From IMG/VR virus record IMGVR_UViG_3300045988_177920, positions 30,051-94,050 of that record: a DNA stretch of 64,000 nucleotides. One strand, given 5' to 3'. The position numbers were made by a program, and so were the translations under genes. Below are positions 44,907-63,936 of this stretch, in pieces (within the stretch, counting starts at the first letter, position 1; each line of letters starts with the position of its first letter). The stretch comes from a virus. The notes below the pieces were generated by a model. It saw only the letters and a program-made list of their open reading frames with translations, made no database searches and had not been told where the DNA came from.

Positions 44907-44925
44907 GCAGGGGAAGGAGAGTTAA

Positions 44926-45653: not shown

Positions 45654-45666
45654 TTTATTCTATATA

Positions 45667-45921: not shown

Positions 45922-45937
45922 TGTTGTTGGTTTTTAT

Positions 45938-46252: not shown

Positions 46253-46299
46253 AAGAGCAGCCTACAAGCTTTAGTTAATAATCAAGTTTAGTTAGACAA

Positions 46300-46608: not shown

Positions 46609-46625
46609 ACAAGCTTTAGGTTAGG

Positions 46626-46898
46626 TTATCGTTTGTTGTTTTTATCGAAGTGTGTATATACAGGAACTTCGTTTATAGCGTATCCTGAAAAATCAGGAAC
46701 TTCTTCAACCGTGAGGTCATCGAAGTCATCACCATATTTAGGTGAAACACATGTTTTTAAGAGGTATTCTGCATGTTTAATGCACTCCTCTTTTGTTGTG
46801 TAGAGTGGGGTTTCAACGTTTATAACGGGATCCCATTCTGCATTGATCATACATGCTTTGTATAGAACCATATATGGTTCATTCATTGTTTTGTTCAT
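46626..46898 (-). CDS. Hypothetical protein
   Basis: Intact track ORF. Confidence 0.6.
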   Translation of the reverse strand: MNKTMNEPYMVLYKACMINAEWDPVINVETPLYTTKEECIKHAEYLLKTCVSPKYGDDFDDLTVEEVPDFSGYAINEVPVYTHFDKNNKR

Positions 46899-47472
46899 CG
46901 TATTTAAGTGCTAGTATGTTTTGATGAAAGTATACTTGTCCTTCTAATATACCTCTTCTTTGGCATTCCTTTTCTGCCAAAAACTCTGCCTTTATATAGC
47001 AGATGTCGCAGAACTCCTCTAAGGTCATTTTAGGGATTTGAGGTATGGGAAGATTGAGATATCGATACAACCATAGAACATCCGCTTTGAATGTGTTTAT
47101 TGCGGATTCAAGAAACCAGTGAAGGTGAATTATATCACCTTTATCCTGGTTATATCTATACCCATAAAGGGCTTCTGCCTCTGGTAGAATGGCCTTCATA
47201 GCCATTAAAGTGCTGCTGTAGCGGTATTTATACTCCGACCATTCAAATCCGTGTAGAATTGAAGCTCCTGTCCATATAGAGATTATCTCATTGAGTCTCT
47301 GCACTTTGTCTAAGTCAGTTACTTTGTTTTCTATGGTGTAACTGACTTCCAACACGTCATCATGCTGTGTGAGTCGGATGGCCTCTTCTTTCACCTCCTC
47401 CATATATAGAGCTCCTTTGGAGAAAGTGTCAACCTTTCCGTTTGTATATAGTACATTATATTTTGCTTTCAT
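46879..47472 (-). CDS. Hypothetical protein
   Basis: Intact track ORF. Confidence 0.65.
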   Translation of the reverse strand: MKAKYNVLYTNGKVDTFSKGALYMEEVKEEAIRLTQHDDVLEVSYTIENKVTDLDKVQRLNEIISIWTGASILHGFEWSEYKYRYSSTLMAMKAILPEAEALYGYRYNQDKGDIIHLHWFLESAINTFKADVLWLYRYLNLPIPQIPKMTLEEFCDICYIKAEFLAEKECQRRGILEGQVYFHQNILALKYDEQNNE

Positions 47473-47737
47473 ATATCACCATTTTAAGAGTTTTAGATTC
47501 TTTTTTCATGTTCTCTATGGTGGCTTTATCAGCCTTGCAGAGTACCCTGGGATCTACAAAATATATCCCTTGGTATTCTGTGATGAAGTGGACTTCATAT
47601 GGGTAGTTTGTTTGTATTGCTGCCCATGTATAGAATTGCCCACCATTAGGATGGTTTGGTGTTGCCACCAACATTTTTAGATTGTAGGTGATGCCATTAA
47701 TGATGGCTATACACCTTCCATTTGTTTTGTTTTCCAT
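47456..47737 (-). CDS. Hypothetical protein
   Basis: Intact track ORF. Confidence 0.6.
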   Translation of the reverse strand: MENKTNGRCIAIINGITYNLKMLVATPNHPNGGQFYTWAAIQTNYPYEVHFITEYQGIYFVDPRVLCKADKATIENMKKESKTLKMVIYESKI

Positions 47738-47811
47738 TGTTGTTATGTGTTTTAAGTGAAGCCTTCCCTTTAAGAACTAGAGAACTTAGGAAGGCATTAG
47801 TTCTGTGATGA

Positions 47812-48090
47812 TCAGTCTTCGTAGAACCACCAACTAAAGAGTAGCCCACGTCTCTTAAGCTCCCTAAATATAGGAGCTATAAAGTGGGTTCTCCAGTTGC
47901 GTGTTCTCCTCATTAAGTTTAGACAGTTTATGAGGTGATAGTCTGACATTTCAGAGAGATGTAATTTCTCTCCTTTTTTTGTTACCCAAATAGGGTCATC
48001 TGAAAACTTTGCCATTGTATTTAGTTTTAGATGTAGTAGTATGTGTTGACTTATACAAAGCCCTGATGGGCCCATACTATTTAAGCCCAT
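47812..48090 (-). CDS. Hypothetical protein
   Basis: Track ORF. The likely start is the internal MAKFSDDP at 48015. Confidence 0.55.
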   Translation of the reverse strand: MGLNSMGPSGLCISQHILLHLKLNTMAKFSDDPIWVTKKGEKLHLSEMSDYHLINCLNLMRRTRNWRTHFIAPIFRELKRRGLLFSWWFYED

Positions 48091-48109
48091 CAGGTGAATT
48101 TCTTAGAAC

Positions 48110-48352
48110 TTAAGAGCAGAAGTATTCGTACATACATTCTTCTCTAGTAAGATCCTCGAGTGCTAACTCATAGTAGTCCAGAGCATTAGAAAGCTCCCGC
48201 TCTATTTGTTTCAGCTCATCATGCTTCTCCACGTGTTCTTGTGGAGTGATTTTTTGCAGGTGATGGATTTTCTCAAGATGTTTATTGAGGTCCTCTACAG
48301 CTGCTTTGGTCTCCTTGATATTCTCTTGGAGCTTTTCATAATATTCACACAT
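48110..48352 (-). CDS. Hypothetical protein
   Basis: Intact track ORF. Confidence 0.6.
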   Translation of the reverse strand: MCEYYEKLQENIKETKAAVEDLNKHLEKIHHLQKITPQEHVEKHDELKQIERELSNALDYYELALEDLTREECMYEYFCS

Positions 48353-48614
48353 ATCGTTTTAGGTTATATAGATGGGATTTAAGGAACAATTCATCTACCC
48401 CATCTTGGTTTAACATGTATATTGTATATTTCCTTGAAAGCCTTACTAATGTAGGCCATTCAGTGATTTTCATGTTATAAAGAAGCTCTAGCTCCTCGCG
48501 CATTTCATAGATATCCCATGTAGAGAGATTTTCTTGGGAAACTCTATGATCGAATACTTCTTGAGCCATGTGGATTGTGAAATCCAACAAGAACTCATAA
48601 AACCCTTTTTCCAT
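48345..48614 (-). CDS. Hypothetical protein
   Basis: Intact track ORF with an 8-nt overlap. Confidence 0.6.
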   Translation of the reverse strand: MEKGFYEFLLDFTIHMAQEVFDHRVSQENLSTWDIYEMREELELLYNMKITEWPTLVRLSRKYTIYMLNQDGVDELFLKSHLYNLKRYV

Positions 48615-48697
48615 TGTTTTATAGGATTTAAGTGAAACCCCTATTTAAAACTACTCATGTAGAAACTCTAGGAGTACTAGTTTTTTATATGGCTTGG

Positions 48698-49030
48698 TTA
48701 GAAGGGTAAATAGCCCGGTTTTTCATACCATGCTAAGCGCCTTATATCTGGGAAGAAGTGATCTAGTGTCTCATAGGGATCCCCCATTGCTTCATTATAG
48801 AAGTAGGGGACGGATTCTTTCCAGTCTGTGCAGTCTGCTAACAGATGGAAGATATCAGAGAGTTTCTCCATGTAGCCCTCTCTTTCTGAGGGGTCTAGAA
48901 ACTCCCAAGATTCCACCACAAATGGTGAATCCCCATTCCACCATGCCTGAAAGGAATCGTAGGAATGTGCGTGGGTGAAACACATGAAGGATTCTCTGAG
49001 TGTGTAGTAGGCTTCTGTGAAACGTGCCAT
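48698..49030 (-). CDS. Hypothetical protein
   Basis: Intact track ORF, preferred over the antisense ORF 48694-48978. Confidence 0.6.
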   Translation of the reverse strand: MARFTEAYYTLRESFMCFTHAHSYDSFQAWWNGDSPFVVESWEFLDPSEREGYMEKLSDIFHLLADCTDWKESVPYFYNEAMGDPYETLDHFFPDIRRLAWYEKPGYLPF

Positions 49031-49146
49031 TGTGTTGTACTGGTCTTAACAGCTTTATAAGCTTGGGAATACACCCTTACTACCAGGAGGTTTTAGTTAG
49101 AATTAAGTTAATGAGGAGTAGAGGTGAAGAGAGAGGAGAGTGAGTA

Positions 49147-49296
49147 TTAGTCTTCATCCTCGCCATCCCAAATGTGGAGTATGAAGTTTTGAAACTTCTC
49201 CCACATGGGTGTGGATTCCAGGATGAATATGACTCCTCCTAAGATTGCCATTATAAGCAATACTGTGAGGAGACACATAACATCGAATGTTTCCAT
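49147..49296 (-). CDS. Mini membrane protein (49 aa), paralog of 51410-51583
   Basis: Manual translation gives METFDVMCLLTVLLIMAILGGVIFILESTPMWEKFQNFILHIWDGEDED. It shares LLIM..G.VF.(L/V)(E/D).(T/L)PMW(E/Q)K with the other mini-ORF. Confidence 0.45.
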   Translation of the reverse strand: METFDVMCLLTVLLIMAILGGVIFILESTPMWEKFQNFILHIWDGEDED

Positions 49297-49388
49297 AGAT
49301 GCAGTGTTTTAGGTGATAATGTGTGATATACTTTAAAAAGCCACCATTATAACACATTATATAATATAATGGTGTGAAATATATTTGC

Positions 49389-49424
49389 TTTTTGTCTATA
49401 ACCTTGAGAAGCATAACTCAAGGT
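49389..49424 (-). repeat. Conserved intergenic hairpin element, copy 1
   Basis: Plus strand reads TTTTTGTCTATA + ACCTTGAG + AAGCATAA + CTCAAGGT (8-bp stem). Confidence 0.6.
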
Positions 49425-49427
49425 GAA

Positions 49428-49979
49428 TTATTGATATAATTCTATCCAGCTCCAACGCTGTACGCGGCCTCTGGATAGTTCTATTATCTCCTTTCTGAGA
49501 AAGAGATACCCTTCTTGTAGGGTCCACCCATTTAATGTAACCCTCCCAGTTCTGGGGTATATCTTATATCCCTTATAAATGATGGCGTCATAATAACCCC
49601 ATCTGAGGTTTTCAAACACCTTTTTTAGGGCACTACTTGGGTTATCCCCAAAGATGCCCTCTTCATCCCAGTGCACTACTGGGAAAAGCCGCCTCATTAT
49701 TAGGGTGGCCACTTTTCTTGGGATATGACAGTCATTCCTATATATAGGAATGAGGGTATCTTTTCTGGCCTCACAGGCCTTTTTGTAGTACCTGTAATTG
49801 AGGGCTTCTAGTCCTCTCAGGTATGTACTTCTAAAGGAGCTTAACTGCTCCTTTGTTACATCCTCATACCTTATAGGTAGAGTGATGGTCTCTATGCGAT
49901 GCACAGGATGCCCCCATCCATCTATATAGTTAACTTCACGTGTAACACTCTCATATTGTCGTTGGTATTTTGCTTCCAT
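49428..49979 (-). CDS. Hypothetical protein
   Basis: Intact track ORF. Confidence 0.65.
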   Translation of the reverse strand: MEAKYQRQYESVTREVNYIDGWGHPVHRIETITLPIRYEDVTKEQLSSFRSTYLRGLEALNYRYYKKACEARKDTLIPIYRNDCHIPRKVATLIMRRLFPVVHWDEEGIFGDNPSSALKKVFENLRWGYYDAIIYKGYKIYPRTGRVTLNGWTLQEGYLFLRKEIIELSRGRVQRWSWIELYQ

Positions 49980-52425: not shown

Positions 52426-53157
52426 ATGAAACACGTTATAGGTAAAAGAAATGGTAAGACTATTGTATCAGGTGGTGGTAGTCTTGAAGAACAAAAAAAT
52501 AATTTAAAGCATTGGGAGATTTTAGATAGTGTTGGTGGAGAAGGTCCTAAAGCCAATTTCGCTATTACAGATCCTGTGTATTATATAAATAAGGATGATA
52601 TATATACCATTTTAACTGGGGATTATTATAAAACACAAAATACAGACCCTAATGCACTAGCTGGAAATGTTTCAGGAGATAATTATAGAATATATAGGGG
52701 AATTAGTGCGTTATCGAATAGTTTCCCTGAGGGTATTAGTGTTACTGCTGAAGTTTATTTAGGCATTCCTGACGAATATAATAAGTATAAATCTGTAATA
52801 GATTATCAAACAGAAAATTTTCCTGAGACAATATTAAAAAGATCTGAAGTATATGCGCAAAAATATCCTTATTTTGACTATAGTAGTTATAGTAAAGATT
52901 TTTTTATTGGTTCTTTAAATACAACAGCAACTTTAAGTACTGATGGAACAGTAAGTGAATTTTCTGGAGGACATCATATTACAGTCAATAGGTACGATCC
53001 TATTGGATATCCTACTGGTAAAGTCGTAGATTATATTGTCACGGCCAATCCCGCAAAATTAACCAAATTTTTTAGTAGTGTTGAGTATGCAGCAATTATA
53101 ATTCCTGTTATGAATGTGAAGGGGAATATTCTTACAGGTAATATTATTATACAATGA
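52426..53157 (+). CDS. Hypothetical protein
   Basis: Intact track ORF, first gene of the plus-strand operon. Confidence 0.7.
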   Translation: MKHVIGKRNGKTIVSGGGSLEEQKNNLKHWEILDSVGGEGPKANFAITDPVYYINKDDIYTILTGDYYKTQNTDPNALAGNVSGDNYRIYRGISALSNSFPEGISVTAEVYLGIPDEYNKYKSVIDYQTENFPETILKRSEVYAQKYPYFDYSSYSKDFFIGSLNTTATLSTDGTVSEFSGGHHITVNRYDPIGYPTGKVVDYIVTANPAKLTKFFSSVEYAAIIIPVMNVKGNILTGNIIIQ

Positions 53158-53726
53158 AATTAGCATCACATAACTCCCTAACATACTTACCCCCTAAGAA
53201 ATGGTATTTATATCCTTTGAGATTTATAGCAAGATGTCAAAGTAAATCTATTGAGGAACAGTATAAGTTAGGTATTAGATTTTTTGATTTTAGAATAAGT
53301 TTTGACAGAAACTTTAATGTTGAAATAAGACATGGATCAATGGCTTATAAAGGAGATGTAGAAGCATTCTTAGATTTCCTTAATAAGAAAAGAAACTGTT
53401 ATGTCAGACTGATCCTAGAAAGAAAATTAGATGAAGAGGATATACAATTATTTCAGCACTATTGTGATATCTTAGTTAAAAAGTATCCTAGGGTAAAATT
53501 CTGTGGAGGTATAGATAAAGAATCTTGGAAGGTTATATACGAATTTAAATATAACCCTACTTATGAAGATAAATATTCTTCTAATAATACTCTGGGTACT
53601 CCATGTACAGGAACTTATTTAGATGATTGGTGGCCTTGGATATATGCTAAATGTAATAATAAAAGGAATATAAAAGAAGGCACTGATAAAGAATTTTTAA
53701 TGATAGATTTTGTAAATATTCAATAA
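53154..53726 (+). CDS. PI-PLC X-domain-like phosphodiesterase (tentative)
   Basis: ASHNSLTY, LGIRFFDFRIS and VEIRHGS parallel the catalytic His, the GxRxxDxR block and the second His of bacterial PI-PLC-type TIM-barrel phosphodiesterases. ATGA coupling to the upstream gene. Confidence 0.45.
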   Translation: MKLASHNSLTYLPPKKWYLYPLRFIARCQSKSIEEQYKLGIRFFDFRISFDRNFNVEIRHGSMAYKGDVEAFLDFLNKKRNCYVRLILERKLDEEDIQLFQHYCDILVKKYPRVKFCGGIDKESWKVIYEFKYNPTYEDKYSSNNTLGTPCTGTYLDDWWPWIYAKCNNKRNIKEGTDKEFLMIDFVNIQ

Positions 53727-53731
53727 TATAT

Positions 53732-53769
53732 AAGGGTATGGGGCTTTAACCCTATACCCTTTAATTTTA
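53732..53769 (+). terminator. Intrinsic terminator
   Basis: AAGGGTATGGGG pairs with CCCTATACCCTT (12 bp, one G-U pair) around loop CTTTAA, followed by TTAATTTT. Confidence 0.65.
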
Positions 53770-53777
53770 ATATATAT

Positions 53778-54677
53778 ATGGCTTGGGAAAATTTACCAAT
53801 GAGAGACAGGGCTACTATAATAAGGTTAGGAGTTCAAAGTGGCCTTAGAGATATAAATAGTATTAAAGAAACTTATAATAAGTTTGCTGATGGAGGTAAA
53901 GTAGATAAAGAAATAACTACCCCTATAAAGCATCCTGTAATACCTAAAAGTGATGACCAAGTAGCAATAAACTTTTTAGCAAATTGGTTAAATAACAGAA
54001 GAGGACAATTATATAACAATATAATTAATTCTAATGTAGGCACCATGCAGTACTTAACAAAACCAAAAAATAAAATAAGAGGAGATATAACAAAGAATGG
54101 TTGGAGCGAAAAATTTGTTGGTATACAACCTGACTTTCTACAATATTTTATATTCAATAATCCAGATAGAATAGCTACAAATAAAACTTTTTATTCTCAA
54201 ATAAATAATGCAGCGAGTGCTCCACAAACTATATTGACAAATAAACGCTCTAGTTCATATGATATAAGAGGAATGTATGTTGCACCCAATAGATGGAACA
54301 ATACTGGGCATTATATAGCATATGCAGGTATTCCTGATAATGGGGTAAACATACATGAAAGAACACATGCTATGAATGCTGATCCACAAGAAAGATTAAT
54401 ACAAAATAAAATAGATAGCAGTAAACACAAAGATAAGTATTTAGATGATAGTAAAGAAATATATGCAAGGTTAATGCAGTATAGATTTAATAATAAACTA
54501 TCACCTGGATTTGTGGTTACAAAACAATATTTACAAAAAAATAGAGATAAGCTAAAAGCTCTGAATTTAGATAGATATAGTGATGATGAACTATTATTCT
54601 TATTCAACGAAATAGCGGAAAATACTATAAATAATAACAATAATAAATTAGAAAACACTAGTAACTTCTTGACCTGA
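53778..54677 (+). CDS. Putative zinc metallopeptidase (HExxH)
   Basis: NIHERTHAM contains an HExxH motif. Otherwise unrecognised. Confidence 0.5.
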   Translation: MAWENLPMRDRATIIRLGVQSGLRDINSIKETYNKFADGGKVDKEITTPIKHPVIPKSDDQVAINFLANWLNNRRGQLYNNIINSNVGTMQYLTKPKNKIRGDITKNGWSEKFVGIQPDFLQYFIFNNPDRIATNKTFYSQINNAASAPQTILTNKRSSSYDIRGMYVAPNRWNNTGHYIAYAGIPDNGVNIHERTHAMNADPQERLIQNKIDSSKHKDKYLDDSKEIYARLMQYRFNNKLSPGFVVTKQYLQKNRDKLKALNLDRYSDDELLFLFNEIAENTINNNNNKLENTSNFLT

Positions 54678-54778
54678 AACTAATAAATTTTATAGGTAGT
54701 AATATTAAATAGTGTTAAAATACTTGCGTAATTAAAATATTATGCTTTACTTTGTAGCGTCTTAATACTATGATTAAG

Positions 54779-54850
54779 CTCTCCATAGTTAAAGGGATAT
54801 AACCTAGGATTTCTAATCCTATATTGAAAGTTCGAATCTTTCTGGAGAGA
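54779..54850 (+). tRNA. tRNA-Arg (anticodon UCU)
   Basis: 72-nt cloverleaf: CUCUCCA/UGGAGAG, GUUA/UAAC, UAGGA-UUUCUAA-UCCUA, GAAAG-UUCGAAU-CUUUC. Confidence 0.8.
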
Positions 54851-54930
54851 CATACGGTGGAAAGATGTTTAATTGTTGTTAAATTGTACAATAACCTCCC
54901 TTAATCTGAGAAGACGGAAGGAGGGAGCTT

Positions 54931-55010: not shown

Positions 55011-55244
55011 ATGAGTTGGTTTACAGAAAGCAATAGAAATAAACATTTCTTTTATGCAATACCTGCAGGATTTATAGGCACAATATTATTTGTACTTGGT
55101 TTGGCAATAGGAATGGAATTTAAGGATAAACAGTATGGAAATAAATTCGATGAACTGGATATTTTAATGACATTAGCAGGTGGTGTAATAGGACAATTTT
55201 TAGCAGTTGCTTTTTATATACTAATATATAAATATGTTATTTAA
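55011..55244 (+). CDS. Small two-TM membrane protein (holin-like by architecture)
   Basis: 77 aa with two hydrophobic helices (FFYAIPAGFIGTILFVLGLAIG and LAGGVIGQFLAVAFYILIY). Wedged between tRNA genes. Confidence 0.5.
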   Translation: MSWFTESNRNKHFFYAIPAGFIGTILFVLGLAIGMEFKDKQYGNKFDELDILMTLAGGVIGQFLAVAFYILIYKYVI

Positions 55245-55248: not shown

Positions 55249-55319
55249 TGCCCTATAGTGTAACAGTAGCACGCAGGTCTCTAAAATCTTCAGTCTCAGT
55301 GCAAGTCTGAGTGGGGCGA
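55249..55319 (+). tRNA. Amber suppressor tRNA (anticodon CUA), probably Gln-accepting
   Basis: Hand fold: acceptor UGCCCUA/UGGGGCG, D arm GUGU-AACAGUA-GCAC, anticodon arm CAGGU-CUCUAAA-AUCUU (C-U mismatch at the top; U33, CUA at 55281-55283, A37), and T arm CUCAG-UGCAAGU-CUGAG. Confidence 0.8.
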
Positions 55320-55335
55320 CTAAAAAACTTTTATT

Positions 55336-55518
55336 ATGGAACAAACTATTCTTGATAACTTTAATAAGCCTAGTATTGAATACTTAAAACATGCTATGTT
55401 GGCTATACTGGATGATCTCAATTTTATAGATAAAGTCGTAGAAATACACTCACTTGGAAATGAATAGTTTGTACTAAACTTTTATGATGAACTTAATAAA
55501 ATAAGTGTAAAAAGATGA
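55336..55518 (+). CDS. Small hypothetical protein with one in-frame TAG (first recoded ORF)
   Basis: ATG is at 55336 and the in-frame TAG at 55465-55467. The frame continues to TGA 55516-55518, which overlaps the next ATG (ATGA). Confidence 0.5.
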
Positions 55519-55697
55519 AGGTAGATAAAAAATGGCAAGCTGAAAGCGATGCTCATACATTAGCACAATACCAGGAAATTATGAGTAGTCCTAGTAGAAA
55601 AAATGCTGCTATTAAAGCTGCTAAGGCACAAGCTGCAGCATTGGAAAGAAGAGCTAATGCTATGAAAATGGCTTCTGGTGGTAAAATAAAAAAATAA
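55515..55697 (+). CDS. Hypothetical protein
   Basis: Intact track ORF. Confidence 0.6.
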   Translation: MKVDKKWQAESDAHTLAQYQEIMSSPSRKNAAIKAAKAQAAALERRANAMKMASGGKIKK

Positions 55698-55870
55698 TGG
55701 AACCTATGATTAAAGATGGAAAAGTTATGACTGCTATTTCTGCTGCTAATATTCGATAGTTGGTAACGAAAGCAAATAACTTAAATGTGAAAAGAGAAGA
55801 CATAGTATCTTTAGTCAAGGAGAATGGTAGTTTTATATTAGTATACTATAGAGATGAAGGAGCCGATTGA
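55697..55870 (+). CDS. Small hypothetical protein with one in-frame TAG
   Basis: ATG overlaps the upstream TAA (TAATG). The in-frame TAG is at 55757-55759 and the TGA at 55868-55870. Confidence 0.5.
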
Positions 55871-56084
55871 TACTTTAGAATTTAAAGAGCCTACAAAGTA
55901 TGATGAGGAACCTGTTGTATACTGTAAAAAATGCTTATCCTTAAGGATACTTAGAATGGGCTTGGATGATCTTGTATATTGTGACAATTGTGGTGGAACA
56001 GATACAGGAGAATTAAATATTAAAGAGTGGGAAACTCTTTATAAAAATAAATATGGATTTAAATATTTAAATAATACTTTATAA
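55854..56084 (+). CDS. Zinc-ribbon protein
   Basis: CKKC ... CDNCG forms two CxxC pairs. Confidence 0.6.
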   Translation: MKEPIDTLEFKEPTKYDEEPVVYCKKCLSLRILRMGLDDLVYCDNCGGTDTGELNIKEWETLYKNKYGFKYLNNTL

Positions 56085-56087
56085 GCA

Positions 56088-56345
56088 ATGGAAGATAATA
56101 AAGAAGTAAAGGAGCTTACGTATGATCAACTCAAAGAAGTAGTAACACAGCTCCAGCATGATAACGATCTGTTATATGCAAGACTACAGCAGTTTGGAGC
56201 AACTACAATATTTAAACGTCTCGATTACCTATTTAAGGTAATAGAAAATGAAACAAGCTTTGAAAAAAACTTTGTAGACAGATGTGTTAATGAAGTAGTT
56301 GAAATAATGACTCCTGCTAAAGAAGAACCTCAAACAGAAGAATAA
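56088..56345 (+). CDS. Hypothetical protein
   Basis: Intact track ORF. Confidence 0.6.
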   Translation: MEDNKEVKELTYDQLKEVVTQLQHDNDLLYARLQQFGATTIFKRLDYLFKVIENETSFEKNFVDRCVNEVVEIMTPAKEEPQTEE

Positions 56346-56346
56346 T

Positions 56347-56730
56347 ATGCTTGGGAAAATTAACAACGTTGTTAGGATTCCCACCACAAAAGAAAAATTT
56401 TTTAAATATTGGTTTGAGTTTCTTAAGCCTTTTCATAATCTCACAAATAGAGAGATTGAAGTAATTTCCTCATTTGTAAAACACAGGTATAAACTAAGCC
56501 TTAATATTACAAGTGAGGAATTACTTAATAAGGTATTAATGAGTGAAGAGACTAAAAAATCTGTAAGAGAGGATTGTGGAATAACAAGCTCTCATTTTCA
56601 AGTTATTATGTCAAAGCTCAGGGAGAAAAAAATCATTATAGATGATAAAATAAATCCTAAATTCATACCAAATATTACAAAAGATGAGGGTAATTTTAAG
56701 TTTATGTTATTATTTGATTTTATAGAATGA
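56347..56730 (+). CDS. Hypothetical protein (possible winged-helix DNA binder)
   Basis: Track ORF. The functional hint comes only from the helix-turn-helix-like segment GITSSHFQVIMSKLREKKII. Confidence 0.55.
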   Translation: MLGKINNVVRIPTTKEKFFKYWFEFLKPFHNLTNREIEVISSFVKHRYKLSLNITSEELLNKVLMSEETKKSVREDCGITSSHFQVIMSKLREKKIIIDDKINPKFIPNITKDEGNFKFMLLFDFIE

Positions 56731-56969
56731 CTATAGAAGAAATAGCAAAAGAGTTAGATTTACCGATTAATGTGGTGGAGAAAACCTATAAAGCCTTTTG
56801 GCTATGTATTAGAAAACATATAGAGAGTCTGCCTTTGAAAGAAGATTTAACAGAGGAAGAGTTCTCTAAATTAACTACTAGTTTTAATATTCCATCATTA
56901 GGTAAGTTGGCGTGCCCTTATGATAAATATAAAAGAATAAAAGCGTATGTTGACAGTAAAAAAAATTAA
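56727..56969 (+). CDS. Hypothetical protein with N-terminal HTH-like segment
   Basis: Track ORF containing IEEIAKELDLPINVVEKTY. Confidence 0.55.
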   Translation: MTIEEIAKELDLPINVVEKTYKAFWLCIRKHIESLPLKEDLTEEEFSKLTTSFNIPSLGKLACPYDKYKRIKAYVDSKKN

Positions 56970-57357
56970 ACCTATGTTTACTGCCCTTGTTACAACAATG
57001 GATGTATATGAAGAAGATGGTAAAATAGGTAATATTATAGATGTAACAAAAAAAGCAGGTACAGTAAAAGAATATCAAACAGTTTTAGCTATTGGAGACT
57101 CTGTTAGAGGAATTAAAGTTGGGGATTTAGTATCAATAAATCCTAATAGATTCGCAGTTAAGAAACACAAAGACGGAAGTCTTAAAGATGGTATTATTTC
57201 AGATAATCCTGTTATTGAATATAGATTTGATATTGTTATAATTGATAATAAACCCTGTTTATTATTACAAGACAGAGACATAGAATTTGTAGTAGAAGAA
57301 TGGGAGGAAACTGAGGATACCTCAATTATCCATCCTAATAAAGACATTATTCTTTAA
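56947..57357 (+). CDS. GroES/gp31-like co-chaperonin (tentative)
   Basis: KKIKPMFTALV ... TVLAIGDSVRGIKVGDLVSIN follows the Cpn10 pattern (IKPL..rVLV ... G.VvAvG ... vkvGD.V). Confidence 0.45.
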   Translation: MLTVKKIKPMFTALVTTMDVYEEDGKIGNIIDVTKKAGTVKEYQTVLAIGDSVRGIKVGDLVSINPNRFAVKKHKDGSLKDGIISDNPVIEYRFDIVIIDNKPCLLLQDRDIEFVVEEWEETEDTSIIHPNKDIIL

Positions 57358-57362: not shown

Positions 57363-57390
57363 AAAGCCTCTCAATCGAGAGGCTTTTTTA
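57363..57390 (+). terminator. Intrinsic terminator
   Basis: AAGCCTCTC (57364-57372) pairs with GAGAGGCTT (57377-57385) around loop AATC, then TTTTTT. Confidence 0.8.
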
Positions 57391-57402: not shown

Positions 57403-57951
57403 ATGAAATTATTTAAATATGATGCATATAAAATAGTTATCTCAGAAGAGGCATTATTGCTTAAACCATTTAAACAGATATGGGTAAGAGATAAAACTAG
57501 TGGTAAAAGTAAAGCACTTTAGGAATTAGCATATATCTATTTTATGTGTGATCCTAGAAGTGATTATCAGTATATTATTGACCCTAAAGAGCGTGCAAAA
57601 GCAGTTATAGAAGGAGAAGGTTTAAAAGATTGGAAGCCCGATAAACAAGTTCAAGAAGCTATGTAGTTTTATGAATCATTTAAATCCCCCTCCGCACTTC
57701 TTCTCGAAGATACTCGTGTTGCTGTGGATAAAGTCAGAACGTTCCTTAGAGATGTTGATTTGAATGCACTGGATGATAAAGGAAAGCCTGTTTACACTAT
57801 AAATAGTATAACATCTACTATTAAAATGATTCCTTAGTTAGTTAAAGACCTTGCAGATGCTGAAAAAGCAATTACAACTGAAATGATCAGTTCTGGAAAA
57901 ATGCGAGGTTCTGGTGAGAAAAAATTATTTGAAGATGGAATTAACATTTAA
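57403..57951 (+). CDS. Hypothetical late protein (182 codons, three in-frame TAG); small terminase subunit possible by position only
   Basis: ATG is at 57403 and TAA at 57949-57951. The frame is interrupted only by TAG. It lies immediately upstream of terL. Confidence 0.55.
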
Positions 57952-58219
57952 TGAAATAATAAACACTATAGGGAAAGCAATTGGCAAAAACCTTGTTGTT
58001 AGAAAAACTGTAGAAGCACATTCTACAATGAAAATTATTAAAACTTTTACAGGAGAATTATATGAGATAAATAAAGGTAAAGGTGAACTTATAGAAAGGT
58101 TTACTAAAACAGATAAAGTAGCAACAGCTTCCTTAGAAAGTTTTCAAAAAAAATTTGATTTGTATATAATACAAGAAATAGTAAAATTAGTATTAAATGG
58201 AGAACTTTCAATTAAATAA
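57935..58219 (+). CDS. Hypothetical protein
   Basis: Track ORF 57914-58219 trimmed to ATG 57935. It overlaps both neighbours. Confidence 0.45.
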   Translation: MELTFNEIINTIGKAIGKNLVVRKTVEAHSTMKIIKTFTGELYEINKGKGELIERFTKTDKVATASLESFQKKFDLYIIQEIVKLVLNGELSIK

Positions 58220-61200
58220 ATATCAGACCCCTATAACTCAAGAATTACTTGATTCTATGAATGAGGAGATTAAGGAACAATTTTTTGATTATATTAATAA
58301 TGTTCCTTATATAAAAAGACTGATTTCTTCTAATAGACCTTACGCTAAAGATCTTCCTAGAGATAGCGAAGGTAAAATTATTATTGATATAACAAAGCCT
58401 CATATATTAGAAGATACCGATTATTTCAGACCTACAGCAATACATTTTTAGAAAACAGGAAGACTTACAGATTTAAAACCTAATGCTAATCCTAACAGTG
58501 AATTTGGAAAGTGGATTAGGGAAGAAATAAGAAGATGTTATGAAGGATATGTAAGACCCTCAGACGGTGAATGGATTACAGGAGATATGTATTTCTTTTT
58601 GAATTATTGTCCTATGCAACTTATTAAGAAAGATGCAAAGGGTAAAACTATCCGTTCTGTAGGAATGCCTTTATTCTGGGAAGGGCACTATTATAAATTT
58701 CATTTTTTACAATAGTGTAGAGATAGTGGGCATCATTATATGGAATTATCAAGACGTGGTTGTGGTAAATCATTTTGTGGGGCATCTTTATTGGCAAAAA
58801 GATTTATATTAGGAGAAGGATATGAAGTAAATAAAAAAGTACAATGTGTTGTAACAGCTTCAGAAAGAAAATATATACAAGGCGCTAATTAGATTCTTGA
58901 TATGTTTTAGTATTATATAGATTTCTGTGCTAGTAACACATAGTTTCCATCTAGAAGATTAACCTCTAGTCTTTAGAATATGCAATGGACTATGGGTTAT
59001 TTAGATGTTGAAACAGGAGTTAGAATGGGCACAGAAAACAGTGTTATGGGTATTACATCTAAAGATGATGAATCTAAACTTAGAGGTTCTAGAGGGGTAT
59101 TATATATAATCGAGGAGAGCGGTTGCCACTTAAAAGGTACTAAAGTTATGTTATATAATGGCACTTTTAAGAATGTAGAAGATGTTACTACAGAGGATCT
59201 TCTTATGGGAGATGATGGAACTTCTAGAAAAGTTTTAGAATTATATTCAGGAATTGATGATATGTATAAAATAACATTATCAAATGGTGATACATAGATA
59301 GTCAATAGTAGACATCCAATATATTTTAAAAGCTATAATTGGAATACCAAGAAGTACACAGAACATTTAATGACTGCTCCTTAGATTATGTAGATTAAAG
59401 ATCTAAATAAAGGTAATTATATCTATAAGTCAGATAAAGTAGCTTTTCCCTATAAAAAGCTTAAAATTGACCCTTATTGGATAGGACTTTGGTTAGGCGA
59501 TGGGGACAAAACAAGAATGGCAGTAAGTAATGAAGATCCTGAAGTATTAGATTGGTTAGAGACATATTGTATGACAAATTGTCTTAGATACTCAAAACGA
59601 TATTTAAAACAATCTAAGAAATGTTATAATCTAAATATCTCATCTAAAAATGCTTTATTTAAAGAGTTTGTTTCTCTAAATTTAAAGAACAATAAGCACT
59701 TACCTGACATATATAAATATAATTCCAAAGAGGTGTTGTTAAATATACTTGCAGGTGTTATAGATACTGATGGGACTTTAAATAGAAAGAAACAGTACTA
59801 TGAAATAACACAAGTTTATAAAAATAAACAGATTATAGATGATATTGCTTATATTTCTAGAGTATTGGGATTTAGAGTAACTATAACTACAAAAGTTGCA
59901 TGCCAAACAGCTAAAGGTGCAGGACATTTAAATTATAGACTACGAATATCGGGAGATATAGACAAGATTCCTGTTAAAATAGAAAGAAAAAAAATAATCA
60001 AGAGACATACTGCAAGAAATAGAAGAAATTGGAATGAATATACTTTTAAAGTAGAACCTTGTGGAAAGGGAGAGTATTATGGATTTACTATAGATAAAAA
60101 TCATTTATTCTTACTAGACGATTTCACAATAACCCATAATACATTTCCTAGACTATTAAATTTATGGTAGGTATTAAGACCTTCTGTAGAAGATGGTGAT
60201 AGTGTATGGGGAATTATTGCTGCTTGGGGTACGGCAGGTGATAATGATTCTGATTTTAGTTCTATGCAAGAACTTATGTATAATCCTAAAGGATATAATG
60301 TTTTGGGAATTAATAATATTTATGATAAAGAAGGTTAGGGTAGAAAATAGTTTACATACTTCTTTCCAGGGTACTTAAACAGAGCTGACTGTTATGATAA
60401 AGATGGTAATAGTGATGTTATTAAAGCATTAGTACAGATACTAAAAGATAGGTATCTTGTTAAATATAATTCAACCAATATTAATGCCATTACTAAACGT
60501 ATTGCAGAAATCCCCATAACTCCATAGGAAGCTATTCAAAGAGCTAAAGGTAATATATTTCCTATAACAGAATTGACAGCAAGATTAAATGAAATTGATG
60601 GTAATCCCAACTTTTATGATGATACTTATGTAGGTAATCTCATATTCAATAAGAAACACGAAGTAGAATTTTAGCCTAGTTATGATAAACCTATTAGAGA
60701 CTTTCCTTTAAAAGATAATAAAAGTACTGGTGCTTTAGAGATATTTGAAATGCCGCAGGAGGTGTAGGGAAGAATACCACAAGATAGATATATAGCATCT
60801 TTAGATAATTATGAAAATGATGAGTCTAATACTATGTCATTGGGGTCTTTATTTGTAATGGATTTATGGACAGATAAAATAGTTGCAGAATATACAGGAA
60901 GACCAATGTTTGTAGATGATTTAAATGAGATAGCTAGAAAAGTTTGTCTGTTCTATAATTGTTAGTTACTCTATGAAAGTAATAAGAAAAACACTTTTTC
61001 ATATTTTAGTAGAACTAATAGTTTGTATATGTTAGCAGACACTCCCGAATATTTAAGAAATAAACAGCTTATAAAATCCTCTAATTTCGGTAATTCAAGT
61101 AAAGGAGTTTAGGCAACTGTACCTATTAAAAATTTTGGTTTAACCTTAATTAGGGATTGGCTATTAAAGCCTGTAACTATAAATGAAGAGTAGGATGGCC

Positions 61201-61451
61201 ATGAAGTATCTTATACTGTTCCTAATTTATCTTTTATAAAAAATAGGGCTCTGTTAAAAGAACTTATTTTATTTAATCCTGATATAAATGTTGATAGATT
61301 AATGTCTCTAATTCAACTTATGCTCTTTAGAGAAGAAAAAATGATTTTATATCAAGGTGATATGAGGAGAGCTTAGGCAAAACCAAAGGGATTAGAAATG
61401 GACCCATTCTTTGAAAAAAACTATAGATAGTTTAAACTTAATACTTTATAA
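58197..61451 (+). CDS. terL: Terminase large subunit, TAG-recoded, interrupted by an intein
   Basis: A single frame (start mod 3 = 0) links track ORFs 58197, 58980 and 59517 and continues to TAA 61449-61451 with only TAG interruptions. Walker A SRRGCGKSF, Walker B-like VLYIIEE, and downstream WGTAGD are present. Confidence 0.8.
59124..60140 (+). mobile_element. Intein (339 codons) with LAGLIDADG homing endonuclease, in-frame in terL
   Basis: It starts with Cys (EESG/CHLKGTKV), contains LGLWLGDGD and LAGVIDTDG, and ends in THN followed by Thr (60141). Three in-frame TAGs lie inside it, at 59295, 59382 and 59391. Confidence 0.8.
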
Positions 61452-61474
61452 TAGTTAATAAAATAATTATTATG

Positions 61475-61505
61475 TTGTGTAATTGTTTATTATATGATAC
61501 CTTTG
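61475..61505 (+). promoter_or_regulatory. Bacteroidota-type promoter upstream of the portal gene
   Basis: TTG (61475-61477) is followed after 20 nt by TACCTTTG (61498-61505), 25 nt before ATG 61531. Confidence 0.4.
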
Positions 61506-61530
61506 TACAAAATTTAAAGTTGAAAGATAT

Positions 61531-63936
61531 ATGAGTAATTTTGTTAAATTACCACCACAATAGTTACCATTTAATAGGAAAAATAAAAAATGGAGAAAAC
61601 TACATTGTGATTGGGCAGACTCTAAAACATTTTTCAACTATTCACCTGTTAGGAACAGTGTTATTCATAAGAAGATTAATTATGATTTAATTAATGGCAA
61701 ACTTCATATGAGTGACCTTATGATGATATTAAATCCTGAACATCTTTAGGCAGGATTTATTCCTGATAAAATACAACACTATCCTATCATGAATAGCAAA
61801 TTAGATGTTCTGAGAGGCGAAGAATCTGCCAGAGTTTTTGATTATAGAGTTATTATAACAAATCCAAATTCAATATCTGAAATAGAGAACAATAAAAGAG
61901 ACCAAATCTATCAAGAACTTCAAAAAGCTGTTTAGGACACCTCTTCTTCTGATGAAGAGTTTAATCAACGTATTTAGTAGATGGGGGATTACTTTTCATT
62001 AGAATGGTAGGATATAAGAGAAATAAGAGCCAATTCATTGCTTCATCACTATATTAAAGAACTTAATATGCCCCTAATATTTAATTAGGGATTTATGGAT
62101 GGAATGACTGTTGGTGAAGAAATCTATCAATGTGATATAGTAGGAGGAGAGCCTGTTATTGAAAGAATAAATCCTTTAAATATAAGAGCTTTTAGGTCAG
62201 GATATTCTAATAGATTAGAAGATGCAGACATTATAATTCTTGAGGATTATTGGAGTCCTGGTAAAATCATTGATACATATTATGATGTATTAACAGAAAA
62301 GGATAGAAAGTATATTGAATAGATGCCTGATAATTTAGGATAGGGGTCTACTGATTCTATGGATAATATAGATGAAAGATATGGCTTTATAAATGGATCT
62401 ATGTTAGGAGAAACATTTAATTCATAGACAGACTTTTTTTCTAATATTACAGGAGAACTTGATGGAGTTAATGACTCCCTTCTTCCTTTTGATATGAATG
62501 GTAATATAAGAGTTCTCAGAGTATATTGGAAATCTAGAAGAAAGATTAAAAAGGTTAAATCTTATGATCCTGAAACCGGAGAAGAAGTATTTAATTTTTA
62601 TCCTGAAACTTATATAACAAAAACAGAAGAAGGAGAGGAAGAAACAGTTTTTTATATAAATGAAGCTTGGGAAGGTACTAAAATAGGAACTGATATATAT
62701 GTAAATATGCGTCCTAGAGTAGTATAGTATAACAGATTAAGTAATCCTTCAAGATGTCATTTTGGTATTATAGGATCTATATATAATCTTAATGATTCTA
62801 AGCCGTTTTCTTTAGTAGATAAAATGAAATCATATAATTATTTATATGATGTTATTCATGACAGACTAAATAAACTCCTTGCTAGAAACTGGGGTGTTTT
62901 AGTAAATCTTGATTTAGCTAAAGTTCCTACAGGATGGGATATTGAAAAATGGATGTATTTTGCTAAGACTTCAGGTATAGTTGTTACTGATAGTTTTAAG
63001 GAAGGCAATTCAGGCGCTTCTATGGGCAAACTTTCAGGGGCATTAAATAATGCACAACAAGGGGCTTTTAATGCTGATGTTGGTAATACTATTCAGTAGT
63101 ATGTAAATCTTCTTGAATATATTAAACAGGAGATGACTGATGTTTCAGGTATTTCTAGACAGAGAGAAGGTTAGATTAGTAATAGAGAAACTGTTGGTGG
63201 AGTAGAAAGAGCCACACTTCAATCATCACATATTACAGAATGGCTCTTTATGGTACATGATGATGTTAAAAAAAGAGCATTAGAGTGTTTCCTTGAAACT
63301 GCAAAAATAGCATTAAAAGGTAGAAGTAAAAAGTTTCAGTATTTACTTGCAGATAATACACTTAAAGTTACTGAAATTGATGGTGATGAATTTGCTGAAT
63401 CTGACTATGGTCTTGTTGTTGATAACAGTGACGGTATGCAAGAGCTTAAATAGAAACTTGATATGCTTGCATAGGCAGCTTTACAAAATCAAGCTCTTAA
63501 CTTCTCTACTATTATGAAATTATATAATAGTACTTCTCTTGCTGAAAAACAAAGAATGGTTGAAAAGAATGAGTAGGATATGTTGTAGAGAGCATAGGAA
63601 CAACAACAATAGCAACAAGAATTAGCACAATAGCAGCTACAATAGTAGGCTTAGTAGAAATAGGCAGAAATGGAACTTAAAGACTCTATAAACCAAAGAG
63701 ATAATGAAACCAGAATACTTGTTGCTGAAATAAATGCTGAATCTATGGCTAATCAAAATTTCTATAAAGAAGATCCTGAACAGGCTAAAGCCGAATTAGC
63801 TGAAAAAGTTAGACAATTTAATTCTAAATAGGAATTAGAGAAAGATAAACTGGCCGAGACTAAAAGAAAAAATAAAGCTGACGAGGCTTTAAAATTAAAA
63901 TAGATAAATAAACCAAATAATACTAGTAGCAAATGA
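61531..63936 (+). CDS. Probable portal protein (801 codons), TAG-recoded
   Basis: One frame (mod 3 = 1) links track ORFs 62095, 62494, 62824 and 63250. I translated most of it and found only TAG interruptions, ending at TGA 63934-63936. The call rests on size and position directly after terL. Confidence 0.6.

What the first reader, a model, noticed from the sequence alone, without database searches (positions are those of the whole stretch)
55249..55518. CUA-anticodon suppressor tRNA sits exactly at the code boundary
A 71-nt cloverleaf with anticodon CUA (55281-55283), U33 and A37 lies 17 nt upstream of the first ORF containing an in-frame TAG (55336-55518; TAG at 55465). The genes upstream in the same operon (52426-55244) contain no TAG. 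The tRNA starts with U1 in a weak 1:72 pair, as bacterial tRNA-Gln does. The placement suggests the operon delivers the suppressor immediately before the recoded genes are translated.
Basis: partly seen in the sequence, partly recalled or inferred. Interest (0 to 1): 0.75.

Follow-up and report, generated by a model that had tools for sequence, protein, structure and literature searches.

The report
Amber suppressor tRNA, crAss-like phage
A gut crAss-like phage carries a glutamine-type tRNA that reads the stop codon TAG, placed at the head of its TAG-containing late genes; both the tRNA type and this placement are already described for such phages.

Summary
A 71-nt tRNA with anticodon CUA lies at 55249-55319(+). 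ARAGORN finds it and the Rfam tRNA model scores it 45 bits. It sits 4 nt after a TAG-free gene and 16 nt before an ORF with a conserved in-frame TAG.

The window is a Steigviridae-like crAss phage that uses TAG for about 46% of the Gln codons in its late, virion and RNA polymerase genes, and for 0 of 235 Gln codons in its replication genes. TAG columns align with Gln in non-recoded relatives. The tRNA belongs to a covarying family of phage Sup-CTA tRNAs built like Bacteroidales tRNA-Gln.

- The tRNA occupies the tRNA-array slot that non-recoded relatives such as crAss001 fill with ordinary tRNAs.
- The next five genes have no TAG.
- A second code boundary near 16.6 kb has no tRNA.
- Two relatives carry TAG codons upstream of their suppressor.

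The idea that the suppressor sits at the 5' end of the recoded strand and is therefore expressed first was published by Pfennig et al. 2022, building on Yutin 2021 and Borges 2021. This is a new member of a known kind, of low interest.

In passing I found a conserved, covarying noncoding RNA of about 300 nt at 52096-52400. It matches no Rfam family.

The parts
55249..55319 (+). Amber suppressor tRNA (anticodon CUA at 55281-55283). It has a tRNA-Gln-type body: U1:G72, G2:C71, G10, a 7-nt D loop, a 4-nt variable loop and A73. No CCA is encoded. The elbow is unusual (A18, G55).
   Evidence: ARAGORN. Rfam tRNA 45.4 bits. Family covariation: 96.7% of cells paired, 13 of 21 pairs with double changes, 0 of 500 shuffles as high. 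Nearest isotype is tRNA-Gln(UUG). Comparison with host tRNA-Gln.
54779..54851 (+). tRNA-Arg(UCU), the only other tRNA left in the array slot.
   Evidence: ARAGORN and Rfam, 61.8 bits. The same pair of tRNAs is present in L036.
54723..54754 (+). Near-consensus Bacteroidetes-type promoter (CTTG-N20-TTACTTTG) 24 nt upstream of tRNA-Arg. It is the likely start of the unit that carries both tRNAs. This is an inference.
   Evidence: L036 has TTTG...TTACTTTG at the same place. In relatives the motif lies 13-27 nt before tRNAs (45 of 157 hits against 5.5% of the sequence).
55011..55244 (+). Gene for a 77-aa membrane protein with no TAG (phrog_38535). It ends 4 nt before the suppressor tRNA.
55336..55518 (+). 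Small ORF1 (60 aa) with an in-frame TAG at 55465-55467. Its stop overlaps the ORF2 start (ATGA).
   Evidence: Compared with L036 there are 15 synonymous and 3 non-synonymous differences. The TAG is conserved, and the extension after it shows only synonymous changes.
55515..55697 (+). Small ORF2 (60 aa) with no TAG in the window. Its CAG (Gln20) is a TAG in L036.
55697..55870 (+). Small ORF3 (57 aa) with an in-frame TAG at 55757-55759, conserved in L036.
55854..57357 (+). Five TAG-free genes: zinc-finger factor, hypothetical protein, VpsT-like, HU-like and GroES-like. Names are taken from synteny with crAss001 gp11-gp15.
   Evidence: 0 TAG in 9 Gln codons.
57363..57386 (+). Terminator-like hairpin (10 bp) plus a T-run, 17 nt before the next gene. 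The stem is conserved in L036 while the loop has changed.
57403..63936 (+). Heavily recoded late genes: p182 (3 TAG), a 94-aa gene with no TAG, TerL 58197-61451 (20 TAG, intein at 59124-60140) and portal 61531-63936 (27 TAG).
52426..54677 (+). Three TAG-free genes at the head of the + block (243, 190 and 299 aa), with a terminator-like hairpin at 53732-53761.
   Evidence: The homolog of the first gene carries TAG in L036 and L032.
3491..16539 (-). Two giant recoded genes (1779 aa with 33 TAG, 2568 aa with 56 TAG). The larger is the crAss virion RNA polymerase (GFDFDIDK motif). They also depend on the suppressor.
457..3441 (+). Recoded 994-aa gene (24 TAG).
16865..49979 (-). Standard-code block of 49 genes with 235 CAA/CAG Gln codons and 0 TAG. 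It encodes PolA, NrdD, primase, DnaB, an SNF2 helicase and ThyX.

Best explanation
The feature is a phage-encoded amber suppressor tRNA that inserts glutamine. It is a member of the Sup-CTA tRNA family of crAss-like and other gut phages that use genetic code 15 for their late genes.

Shown.
- The tRNA is real and its family evolves under cloverleaf constraint.
- Its body matches phage tRNA-Gln(UUG) and Bacteroidales tRNA-Gln.
- TAG stands for Gln in TerL, portal and p182.
- TAG makes up about 46% of Gln codons in six large late, virion and RNA polymerase genes, and none in 49 replication-block genes.
- The tRNA lies in the tRNA-array slot that this phage family keeps at the head of its structural-gene strand.

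Inferred.
- It is transcribed by host RNA polymerase, probably from the near-consensus Bacteroidetes promoter 24 nt before tRNA-Arg, as part of a polycistronic RNA. With 4 nt and 16 nt of flanking spacer there is no room for its own signals.
- It is cut out by RNase P and 3' processing, receives CCA from the host enzyme, and is charged by host GlnRS.
- It then competes with RF1 at UAG, which licenses translation of all TAG-containing genes. These include the RNA polymerase genes on the other strand, whose crAss001 homologs are transcribed in the middle phase.

Its place just ahead of recoded ORFs is best read as inheritance of the array slot at the 5' end of the late module. It fits the published generalisation that Sup-CTA sits at the 5' end of the recoded strand, but it is not a precise timer.
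For: tRNA.

Family covariation: 33 distinct sequences, 96.7% of cells paired, 13 of 21 pairs with compensatory changes, 0 of 500 shuffles as high, and slid controls at 52% paired or less. The 1:72 pair is never strong: U:G 22, U:A 3, mismatch 8.

Gln identity.
- TAG columns align with Q 1108 times; the next residue, E, aligns 299 times. This is the same profile as CAA/CAG codons. Conserved portal columns are about 95-98% Q.
- CAG in the window corresponds to TAG in L036 in ORF2.
- With the anticodon masked, the nearest isotype is tRNA-Gln (20 against 14 for the window; 18 of 33 family members).
- Bacteroidales tRNA-Gln shares U1 with a weak pair, G2:C71, G10, the D arm GGUGUAAUGGUAGCAC (window AGUGUAACAGUAGCAC), a 4-nt variable loop, A73 and the lack of an encoded CCA.

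Code map.

Array slot.

Promoter motif before arrays, and 18 nt before the suppressor in L032.

Literature: Yutin 2021, Borges 2021, Pfennig 2022, crAss001 RNA-seq.
Against: There are no expression, processing or aminoacylation data.

This copy is the odd one out in its family. It has the T loop UGCAAGU (G55 instead of U55), the D loop AACAGUA (A18) and a C27:U43 mismatch. Its fold energy alone is no better than shuffles. A18 with G55 does recur in 5 of 5 G55 phage tRNAs, which argues for function.

Only 64 kb of a genome of about 97 kb was seen, so a second suppressor elsewhere cannot be excluded.

The promoter assignment rests on a motif with two mismatches. The exact motif is not enriched in the window as a whole (5 found against 4.2 expected).

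No release factor or aminoacyl-tRNA synthetase was found among the ten largest standard-code ORFs. How RF1 competition is overcome is therefore unknown.
Confidence: 0.8

Rival explanations
1. Just-in-time timer. The tRNA is placed exactly at the code boundary so that the operon delivers the suppressor immediately before the recoded genes are translated, and this placement is under selection.
For: - In the window, upstream same-strand genes have 0 TAG in 27 Gln codons, and a TAG-bearing ORF starts 16 nt downstream.
- The layout is identical in L036.
- Across 93 loci the same-strand TAG share rises across the tRNA.
- 20 of 35 non-redundant contexts have an ORF within 30 nt downstream.
- Pfennig et al. 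drew the same inference from 303 genomes.
Against: - The slot holds ordinary tRNAs in non-recoded relatives.
- TAG codons occur upstream of the suppressor in L036 (1) and L032 (5).
- The first downstream ORF has a TAG in only 15 of 35 contexts.
- Five TAG-free genes follow.
- The boundary near 16.6 kb has no tRNA, and the recoded RNA polymerase genes lie about 40 kb away on the other strand.
- Co-transcription gives only seconds of lead, whereas tRNA maturation and charging take time as well.
Confidence: 0.3
2. Decaying or non-functional copy. The unusual elbow (A18, G55) and the C27:U43 mismatch mark a tRNA pseudogene, and TAG is decoded by another suppressor outside the window or by a host factor.
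For: - It is the only one of 37 distinct family sequences with a G55 T loop.
- It has the lowest-but-one Rfam score of the window's tRNAs.
- Its MFE is not significant.
- 60% of TAG-recoded phages lack a detectable suppressor (Borges), so other routes may exist.
Against: - About 165 in-frame TAG codons in the window require efficient suppression.
- The cloverleaf is otherwise intact at 45 bits, against a threshold of 29.
- The acceptor and T stems are identical to those of L036.
- G55 always co-occurs with A18 in independent phage tRNAs (5 of 5 against 3 of 617, p=7e-11), which points to a compensated tertiary pair.
- A 27:43 mismatch occurs in 5 of 33 family members.
- No other CUA, UCA or UUA tRNA is in the window.
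Confidence: 0.08
3. The tRNA inserts an amino acid other than glutamine, for example pyrrolysine as ARAGORN labels it, or Lys, Glu, Tyr or Trp.
For: - ARAGORN gives the label 'tRNA-Pyl'.
- At variable alignment columns TAG also aligns with E, K and N.
- After masking the anticodon, 15 of 33 family members have a nearest isotype other than Gln.
Against: - The residue profile of TAG columns equals that of CAA/CAG columns. Near-invariant Q columns carry TAG: portal 160, 399, 548 and 648, and TerL 714.
- CAG and TAG interchange between the window and L036.
- The body architecture equals Bacteroidales tRNA-Gln.
- tRNA-Pyl hallmarks are absent: a 6-bp anticodon stem, a 3-nt variable loop, a 5-nt D loop and one base between the acceptor and D stems. 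The window tRNA has 5 bp (one of them the C27:U43 mismatch), 4 nt, 7 nt and 2 bases.
- Metaproteomics showed TAG=Gln in crAss-like phages (Peters 2022, listed).
Confidence: 0.03

Closest known systems
Sup-CTA tRNAs of code-15 crAss-like phages (Steigviridae/beta and Suoliviridae/delta groups; Yutin 2021, Borges 2021/22, Pfennig 2022, Peters 2022)
   Same: CUA anticodon. TAG=Gln in the TerL, portal and RNA polymerase genes. The replication block is TAG-free ('dual-coded'). The tRNA lies at the 5' end of the recoded strand. No phage release factor or aminoacyl-tRNA synthetase. The window's tRNA aligns with 32 other distinct family members from IMG/VR and GenBank.
   Different: Only details differ. 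This copy has an A18/G55 elbow. The tRNA array is reduced to two tRNAs. The sequence has no exact match in IMG/VR, and the closest relative is about 79-89% identical.
tRNA array of Bacteroides phage crAss001 (standard code)
   Same: Same genomic slot, between the first genes of the late strand and the block of zinc-finger factor, VpsT, HU, chaperonin and TerL. Same Bacteroidetes-type promoter class just upstream. The array starts with tRNA-Gln and tRNA-Arg.
   Different: crAss001 has 23 ordinary tRNAs, no suppressor and no in-frame TAG.
E. coli supE (glnV) amber suppressor tRNA-Gln(CUA)
   Same: A tRNA-Gln body with a CUA anticodon that GlnRS still charges. It has a weak 1:72 pair, G2:C71, G10 and U35 (established knowledge).
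   Different: supE is a chromosomal mutant with G73 and G3:C70 and modest efficiency. The phage tRNA has A73, as Bacteroidales tRNA-Gln does, and must serve about 46% of the Gln codons of the late genes.
'Code change module' of Jade phages (Borges et al.)
   Same: Suppressor tRNA encoded in standard-code context directly upstream of recoded genes.
   Different: [quoted passage not shown] Here the tRNA stands alone.
tRNA-Pyl
   Same: CUA anticodon only.
   Different: The cloverleaf dimensions differ, no pyl genes were seen, and TAG aligns with Gln.

Membership tests
Phage Sup-CTA tRNA / genetic code 15 system | tRNA gene with anticodon CUA and an intact cloverleaf | tested here: met
   ARAGORN and Rfam, 45.4 bits. 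Covariation in 33 homologs.
Phage Sup-CTA tRNA / genetic code 15 system | In-frame TAG codons in conserved late genes (TerL, portal, RNA polymerase) | tested here: met
   20, 27 and 56 TAG respectively.
Phage Sup-CTA tRNA / genetic code 15 system | TAG positions correspond to glutamine in standard-code homologs | tested here: met
   Q is the top aligned residue (1108, next 299). Conserved columns are about 95-98% Q. CAG and TAG interchange.
Phage Sup-CTA tRNA / genetic code 15 system | Replication and early genes free of in-frame TAG | tested here: met
   49 genes, 235 CAA/CAG, 0 TAG. Pfam identities.
Phage Sup-CTA tRNA / genetic code 15 system | Suppressor located at the 5' end of the strand that carries recoded genes (Pfennig et al.) | tested here: met
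   The tRNA lies 2.8 kb into the + block, ahead of all TAG-containing + genes.
Phage Sup-CTA tRNA / genetic code 15 system | tRNA is expressed and charged with Gln during infection | not testable with these tools
   Needs tRNA-seq, acid-urea Northern blots and proteomics.
tRNA-Gln identity set for GlnRS | Weak 1:72 pair starting with U1 | tested here: met
   U1:G72 in the window. Family: U:G 22, U:A 3, mismatch 8. 113 of 125 bacterial tRNA-Gln start with U.
tRNA-Gln identity set for GlnRS | G2:C71, G10 and U35 | tested here: met
   Read from the sequence and the Rfam alignment. G2:C71 holds in 32 of 33 family members.
tRNA-Gln identity set for GlnRS | Discriminator as in host tRNA-Gln | tested here: met
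   A73, as in the Bacteroidales tRNA-Gln retrieved. This differs from G73 in E. coli (established knowledge).
tRNA-Gln identity set for GlnRS | G36 in the anticodon | tested here: not met
   A36, unavoidable in an amber suppressor. supE shows that GlnRS tolerates it (established knowledge).
tRNA-Pyl | 6-bp anticodon stem, 3-nt variable loop, 5-nt D loop and a single base between the acceptor and D stems | tested here: not met
   The window tRNA has a 5-position anticodon stem (one position the C27:U43 mismatch), a 4-nt variable loop, a 7-nt D loop and two bases, U8 and A9.
Code change module (Sup tRNA + aaRS + RF) | Phage-encoded aminoacyl-tRNA synthetase and/or release factor next to the suppressor | tested here: not met
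   Neighbouring ORFs gave no such Pfam or PHROG hits. The ten largest standard-code ORFs are replication enzymes. The part of the genome outside the window was not seen.

The most novel reading that the evidence does not exclude
The suppressor may act as an RNA-processing punctuation mark and a stoichiometric licence. It lies 4 nt after a standard-code gene and 16 nt before the first recoded ORF. The same RNase P and 3'-end cleavages that release the tRNA would therefore also separate the TAG-free upstream mRNA from the TAG-containing downstream mRNA. Each late transcript would deliver one suppressor. Translation of the RNA polymerase genes, which are transcribed in the middle phase in crAss001, would be held back until the late unit fires. 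The compensated A18:G55 elbow could be an adaptation of this tRNA to host modification or to anti-phage tRNA nucleases.
Probability: 0.12. Interest if true: 0.5.

Novelty: new member of a known kind. Interest (0 to 1): 0.2.

Why it matters
The case adds one more clean, well-delimited example of a phage that runs two genetic codes in one genome. It comes with quantified codon statistics and a direct CAG/TAG interchange between close relatives.

It also gives a caution. The suppressor's location is the ancestral tRNA-array slot of Steigviridae-like phages, so position alone cannot be read as a timing device.

For annotation it matters in practice. Under code 11 the TerL, portal and RNA polymerase genes fall apart into fragments.

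The more original leads are side observations: the conserved structured RNA at the head of the late strand, and the 18:55 tertiary covariation in phage tRNAs.

Tried and rejected
- An exact 21-nt search for the anticodon arm in IMG/VR found nothing. A degenerate family pattern was needed.
- PHROGs and Pfam gave no family for the three small ORFs, the first three + genes or the fragments of the giant ORFs. Their identities came from tblastn and synteny instead.
- The sigma-70 promoter scan was uninformative: 40 found against 39.9 expected. The Bacteroidetes motif is not enriched in the window as a whole (5 against 4.2) and becomes informative only through its position in relatives.
- Single-sequence folding of the tRNA is not better than shuffles.
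- The Rfam-only tRNA-like element at 43180-43249(-) was checked as a possible second suppressor. Its anticodon loop reads UAGUAUA (GUA, with A33), ARAGORN rejects it, and it looks like a decayed tRNA-Tyr. A narrow Rfam call missed it altogether.
- The pyrrolysine reading was rejected (see the membership test).
- The hairpin at 57363-57386 cannot be a full stop of transcription. The next gene starts 17 nt later, with no promoter-like motif at one mismatch or fewer in 57300-57420.
- The Rfam scan of the conserved noncoding region found nothing at E up to 5.
- One call failed on query length and one on an in-frame stop.

Full report
**What is at the coordinates.** ARAGORN reports four tRNAs in the window. 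One is at 55249-55320(+) with anticodon cta. The Rfam tRNA covariance model matches 55249-55319 over its full length at 45.4 bits, against a gathering score of 29, with one non-standard pair, C27:U43. The sequence gives these features:
- anticodon CUA at 55281-55283, with U33 and A37;
- acceptor stem UGCCCUA/UGGGGCG, so U1:G72 and G2:C71;
- G10, a 7-nt D loop AACAGUA, a 4-nt variable loop and the T loop UGCAAGU;
- discriminator A73, and no encoded CCA.

The upstream gene stops 4 nt before the tRNA. The next ATG (55336) follows 16 nt after the discriminator. The in-frame TAG is at 55465-55467. Folding energy of the single sequence is not informative (z=-0.46).

**What genome this is.** GC content is 30.8%. 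Reading TAG as sense joins fragments into long ORFs:
- 457-3441(+), 24 TAG;
- 3491-8830(-), 33 TAG;
- 8833-16539(-), 56 TAG;
- 58197-61451(+), 20 TAG;
- 61531-63936(+), 27 TAG.

PHROGs identifies the last two as terminase large subunit and portal. The 2568-aa ORF is the crAss virion RNA polymerase with the GFDFDIDK motif. DNA similarity places the window among Steigviridae crAss-like phages. The best GenBank match is cr116_1 at about 73%, followed by crAss001 and IAS virus. The closest relative found is an IMG/VR contig of 96.9 kb, locus L036, which is 79-89% identical and also TAG-recoded.

The minus-strand block 16.9-50 kb encodes PolA, NrdD, primase, DnaB, an SNF2 helicase and ThyX. It has 235 CAA/CAG Gln codons and no TAG. 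In six large recoded genes TAG accounts for 163 of 352 Gln codons, or 46%.

**Which amino acid.** I aligned p182, TerL and portal against 75 loci from relatives, leaving out seven that carry a CTA suppressor or show the TAG-recoding signature. TAG positions face Q 1108 times; the next residues are E (299) and K (292). This is the same profile as the query's CAA/CAG codons. Near-invariant Q columns carry TAG: portal 160, 399, 548 and 648, and TerL 714. In small ORF2, a CAG in the window is a TAG in L036.

**The tRNA family.** Relatives with the recoding signature carry a CUA tRNA in the same region. A degenerate pattern retrieved 94 IMG/VR loci, 93 of them with an ARAGORN CUA tRNA, giving 37 distinct sequences. 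On an alignment of 33 of these:
- the cloverleaf has 96.7% of cells paired;
- 13 of 21 pairs show compensatory double changes;
- no shuffle out of 500 reaches the observed values, and slid controls stay at 52% paired or less.

The 1:72 pair is U:G, U:A or a mismatch, never a strong pair. 31 of the 33 end in A73.

With the anticodon masked, the nearest isotype among the tRNAs of related phages is tRNA-Gln(UUG), both for the window (score 20 against 14 for the next isotype) and for 18 of 33 family members.

A scan of bacterial genomes returned mostly Bacteroidota tRNA-Gln genes. The Bacteroidaceae version reads UGUCCUAUGGUGUAAUGGUAGCACA...UAGGACA-A. It shares U1 with a weak pair, G2:C71, G10, the D arm, the 7-nt D loop, the 4-nt variable loop, A73 and the lack of an encoded CCA. 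Charging by host GlnRS is thus the natural inference, but it is not shown.

**Is the tRNA 'exactly at the code boundary'?** Locally, yes. The four same-strand genes upstream have 0 TAG in 27 Gln codons, against 52 of 124 downstream (p=3e-6). Three small ORFs follow the tRNA directly:
- 55336-55518 carries a conserved TAG;
- 55515-55697 has no TAG here but carries one in L036;
- 55697-55870 carries a conserved TAG.

ORF1 and ORF2 evolve as coding sequence: 15 synonymous against 3 non-synonymous differences, and 13 against 3. ORF3 shows 8 against 7.

The boundary is neither unique nor conserved.
- The next five genes (55854-57357) have no TAG in 9 Gln codons (p about 0.005-0.01).
- The switch near 16.6 kb on the other strand has no tRNA.
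- In L036 the homolog of 52426-53157 contains an in-frame TAG followed by a conserved C-terminus.
- In L032 that homolog has 5 TAGs and lies upstream of the entire array, including the suppressor.
- Among 35 non-redundant contexts, the first downstream ORF carries a TAG in 15.
- Taken over all 93 loci, the same-strand TAG share still rises from 0.07-0.16 upstream to 0.33 downstream. This reproduces the published trend.

**Why it is where it is.** crAss001 has 23 tRNAs at 1683-5807, between gp4 and gp9-gp15 (zinc-finger factor, VpsT, HU, chaperonin). cr116_1 has 13 in the same place. In 33 relatives with full flanks, all 425 same-strand tRNAs lie 1-8 kb upstream of the p182 homolog and none lies downstream. 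The window's two tRNAs sit at -2624 and -2154. The suppressor therefore occupies the family's inherited array slot at the head of the late module. In crAss001 that module is transcribed at 30-60 min, and the RNA polymerase subunits gp49 and gp50 belong to the middle class.

A Bacteroidetes-type promoter motif (TTTG-N17-23-TAnnTTTG) lies 13-27 nt before tRNAs in relatives: 45 of 157 hits, where only 5.5% of the sequence qualifies. It precedes the first tRNA in 31 of 50 arrays and lies 18 nt before the suppressor in L032. In the window a two-mismatch version lies 24 nt before tRNA-Arg at 54723-54754, and L036 has one in the same place. An exact match at 52064-52095 heads the strand.

Conserved terminator-like hairpins lie at 53732-53761 and 57363-57386. 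The likely unit is promoter, tRNA-Arg, 77-aa membrane protein, suppressor, small ORFs, regulators, then read-through into TerL and portal. This unit is inferred, not shown.

**Comparison with the literature.**
- Yutin et al. 2021 described TAG-to-Gln reassignment in the late genes of 243 crAss-like phages with suppressor tRNAs.
- Borges et al. proposed the temporal code-switch model and a 'code change module' directly upstream of recoded lysis genes.
- Peters et al. validated TAG=Gln by proteomics (listed).
- Pfennig et al. reported that 225 of 303 complete code-11/15 phages carry Sup-CTA. [quoted passage not shown]

It remains untested by experiment.

**Verdict.** This is a new member of a known kind, of low interest.

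**Side findings.**
1. A noncoding element of about 300 nt at 52096-52400 is about 96% identical to L036, while the flanking genes are 79-89% identical. It has homologs in at least 20 related phages, always after a promoter and upstream of the tRNA array. It shows covarying helices and a P3/P7-like pseudoknot topology, and it has no Rfam match.
2. G55 in the T loop always co-occurs with A18 in the D loop in phage tRNAs.
3. TerL carries a LAGLIDADG intein that is itself recoded.

Noticed in passing
window 52096-52400 (+), core 52175-52355; homologs e.g. L036 5413-5740, L020 4069-4394, L006 3361-3687, L039 4176-4390: Candidate new structured noncoding RNA of about 300 nt, directly after a Bacteroidetes-type promoter (52064-52095) and before the first + ORF.
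- It is about 96% identical to L036, while the flanking coding DNA is 79-89% identical.
- Homologs occur in at least 20 distinct Steigviridae-like phages, recoded or not, always on the tRNA-array strand and 0.5-5.6 kb upstream of the first tRNA.
- Core helices: 98.2% of cells paired, 10 of 20 pairs with compensatory changes, 0 of 500 shuffles as high.
- A long-range helix averages 10.4 bp within a sequence against 7.1 bp between sequences.
- The topology resembles the P3/P7 pseudoknot of group I introns.
- Invariant blocks are ACUAAUAAUAUAUAAACG and GUAGGGCAGAGGUAAU.
- No Rfam family matches at E up to 5.
Function is unknown.
   Followed up: partly
window 55262-55268 and 55300-55306; also tRNAs in L004, L005, L012, L044: Tertiary-pair covariation in phage tRNAs. 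All 5 tRNAs with G at position 55 (T loop UGCAAxU) have AG instead of GG in the D loop (A18). Among U55 tRNAs, 613 have GG and 3 have AG (Fisher p=7e-11). The window's suppressor is one of the five.
   Followed up: partly
window 59124-60140 (+), inside TerL 58197-61451: A 339-aa intein with Hint and LAGLIDADG homing-endonuclease domains (Cys1, His-Asn, then Thr+1). It is absent from the otherwise collinear L036 TerL, and it contains 3 in-frame TAG codons itself.
   Followed up: yes
window 43180-43249 (-): tRNA-like element found by Rfam only (42.2 bits) and not called by ARAGORN. Its anticodon loop is UAGUAUA (GUA, with A33) and its T arm is imperfect. It is probably a decayed tRNA-Tyr next to tRNA-Ile, and it is not a suppressor. 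A narrow-range Rfam call missed it, although searches found it.
   Followed up: partly
window 38885-40069, 50011-50391, 50512-51264, 16671-16865, 38280-38423 (all -): A few standard-code-block genes appear to end in TAG, each followed by an in-frame TAA or TGA 1-34 codons later. The DnaB-like gene has TAG, one codon, then TAA. Suppression would therefore add only short tails. This fits the 'dual-coded, soft switch' idea.
   Followed up: partly
window about 16540-16865 (-): The second code boundary, between the TAG-free replication genes and the RNA polymerase genes with 56 and 33 TAGs on the same strand, has no tRNA.
   Followed up: partly
window 44496-44527 (-) and 52064-52095 (+); relatives L004-L082, L297: Bacteroidetes-type promoter motifs (TTTGCATAT...TAnnTTTG) sit 12 nt before tRNA-Leu(UAA) and at the head of the + strand. 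Two conserved classes of this motif precede tRNA arrays and internal tRNAs in relatives, including crAss001.
   Followed up: partly
window 51797-51950: AT-rich direct and inverted repeats (31-nt arms, 87% complementary) in the divergent intergenic region between the two strand blocks. This may be a regulatory or origin region.
   Followed up: no
L005, L012, L044 (tRNA arrays of relatives): Near-identical tRNA scaffolds carry different anticodons, CAT (Met) and GAG (Leu). This suggests anticodon switching within phage tRNA arrays.
   Followed up: no
L271 2329-2421 (-) (Clostridia MAG contig JAFXOY010000124): A tRNA array on a contig binned as bacterial contains a CUA-anticodon tRNA with a long variable arm (type II, Ser/Leu/Tyr-like). 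It is a different kind of amber suppressor, probably from a phage or prophage.
   Followed up: no
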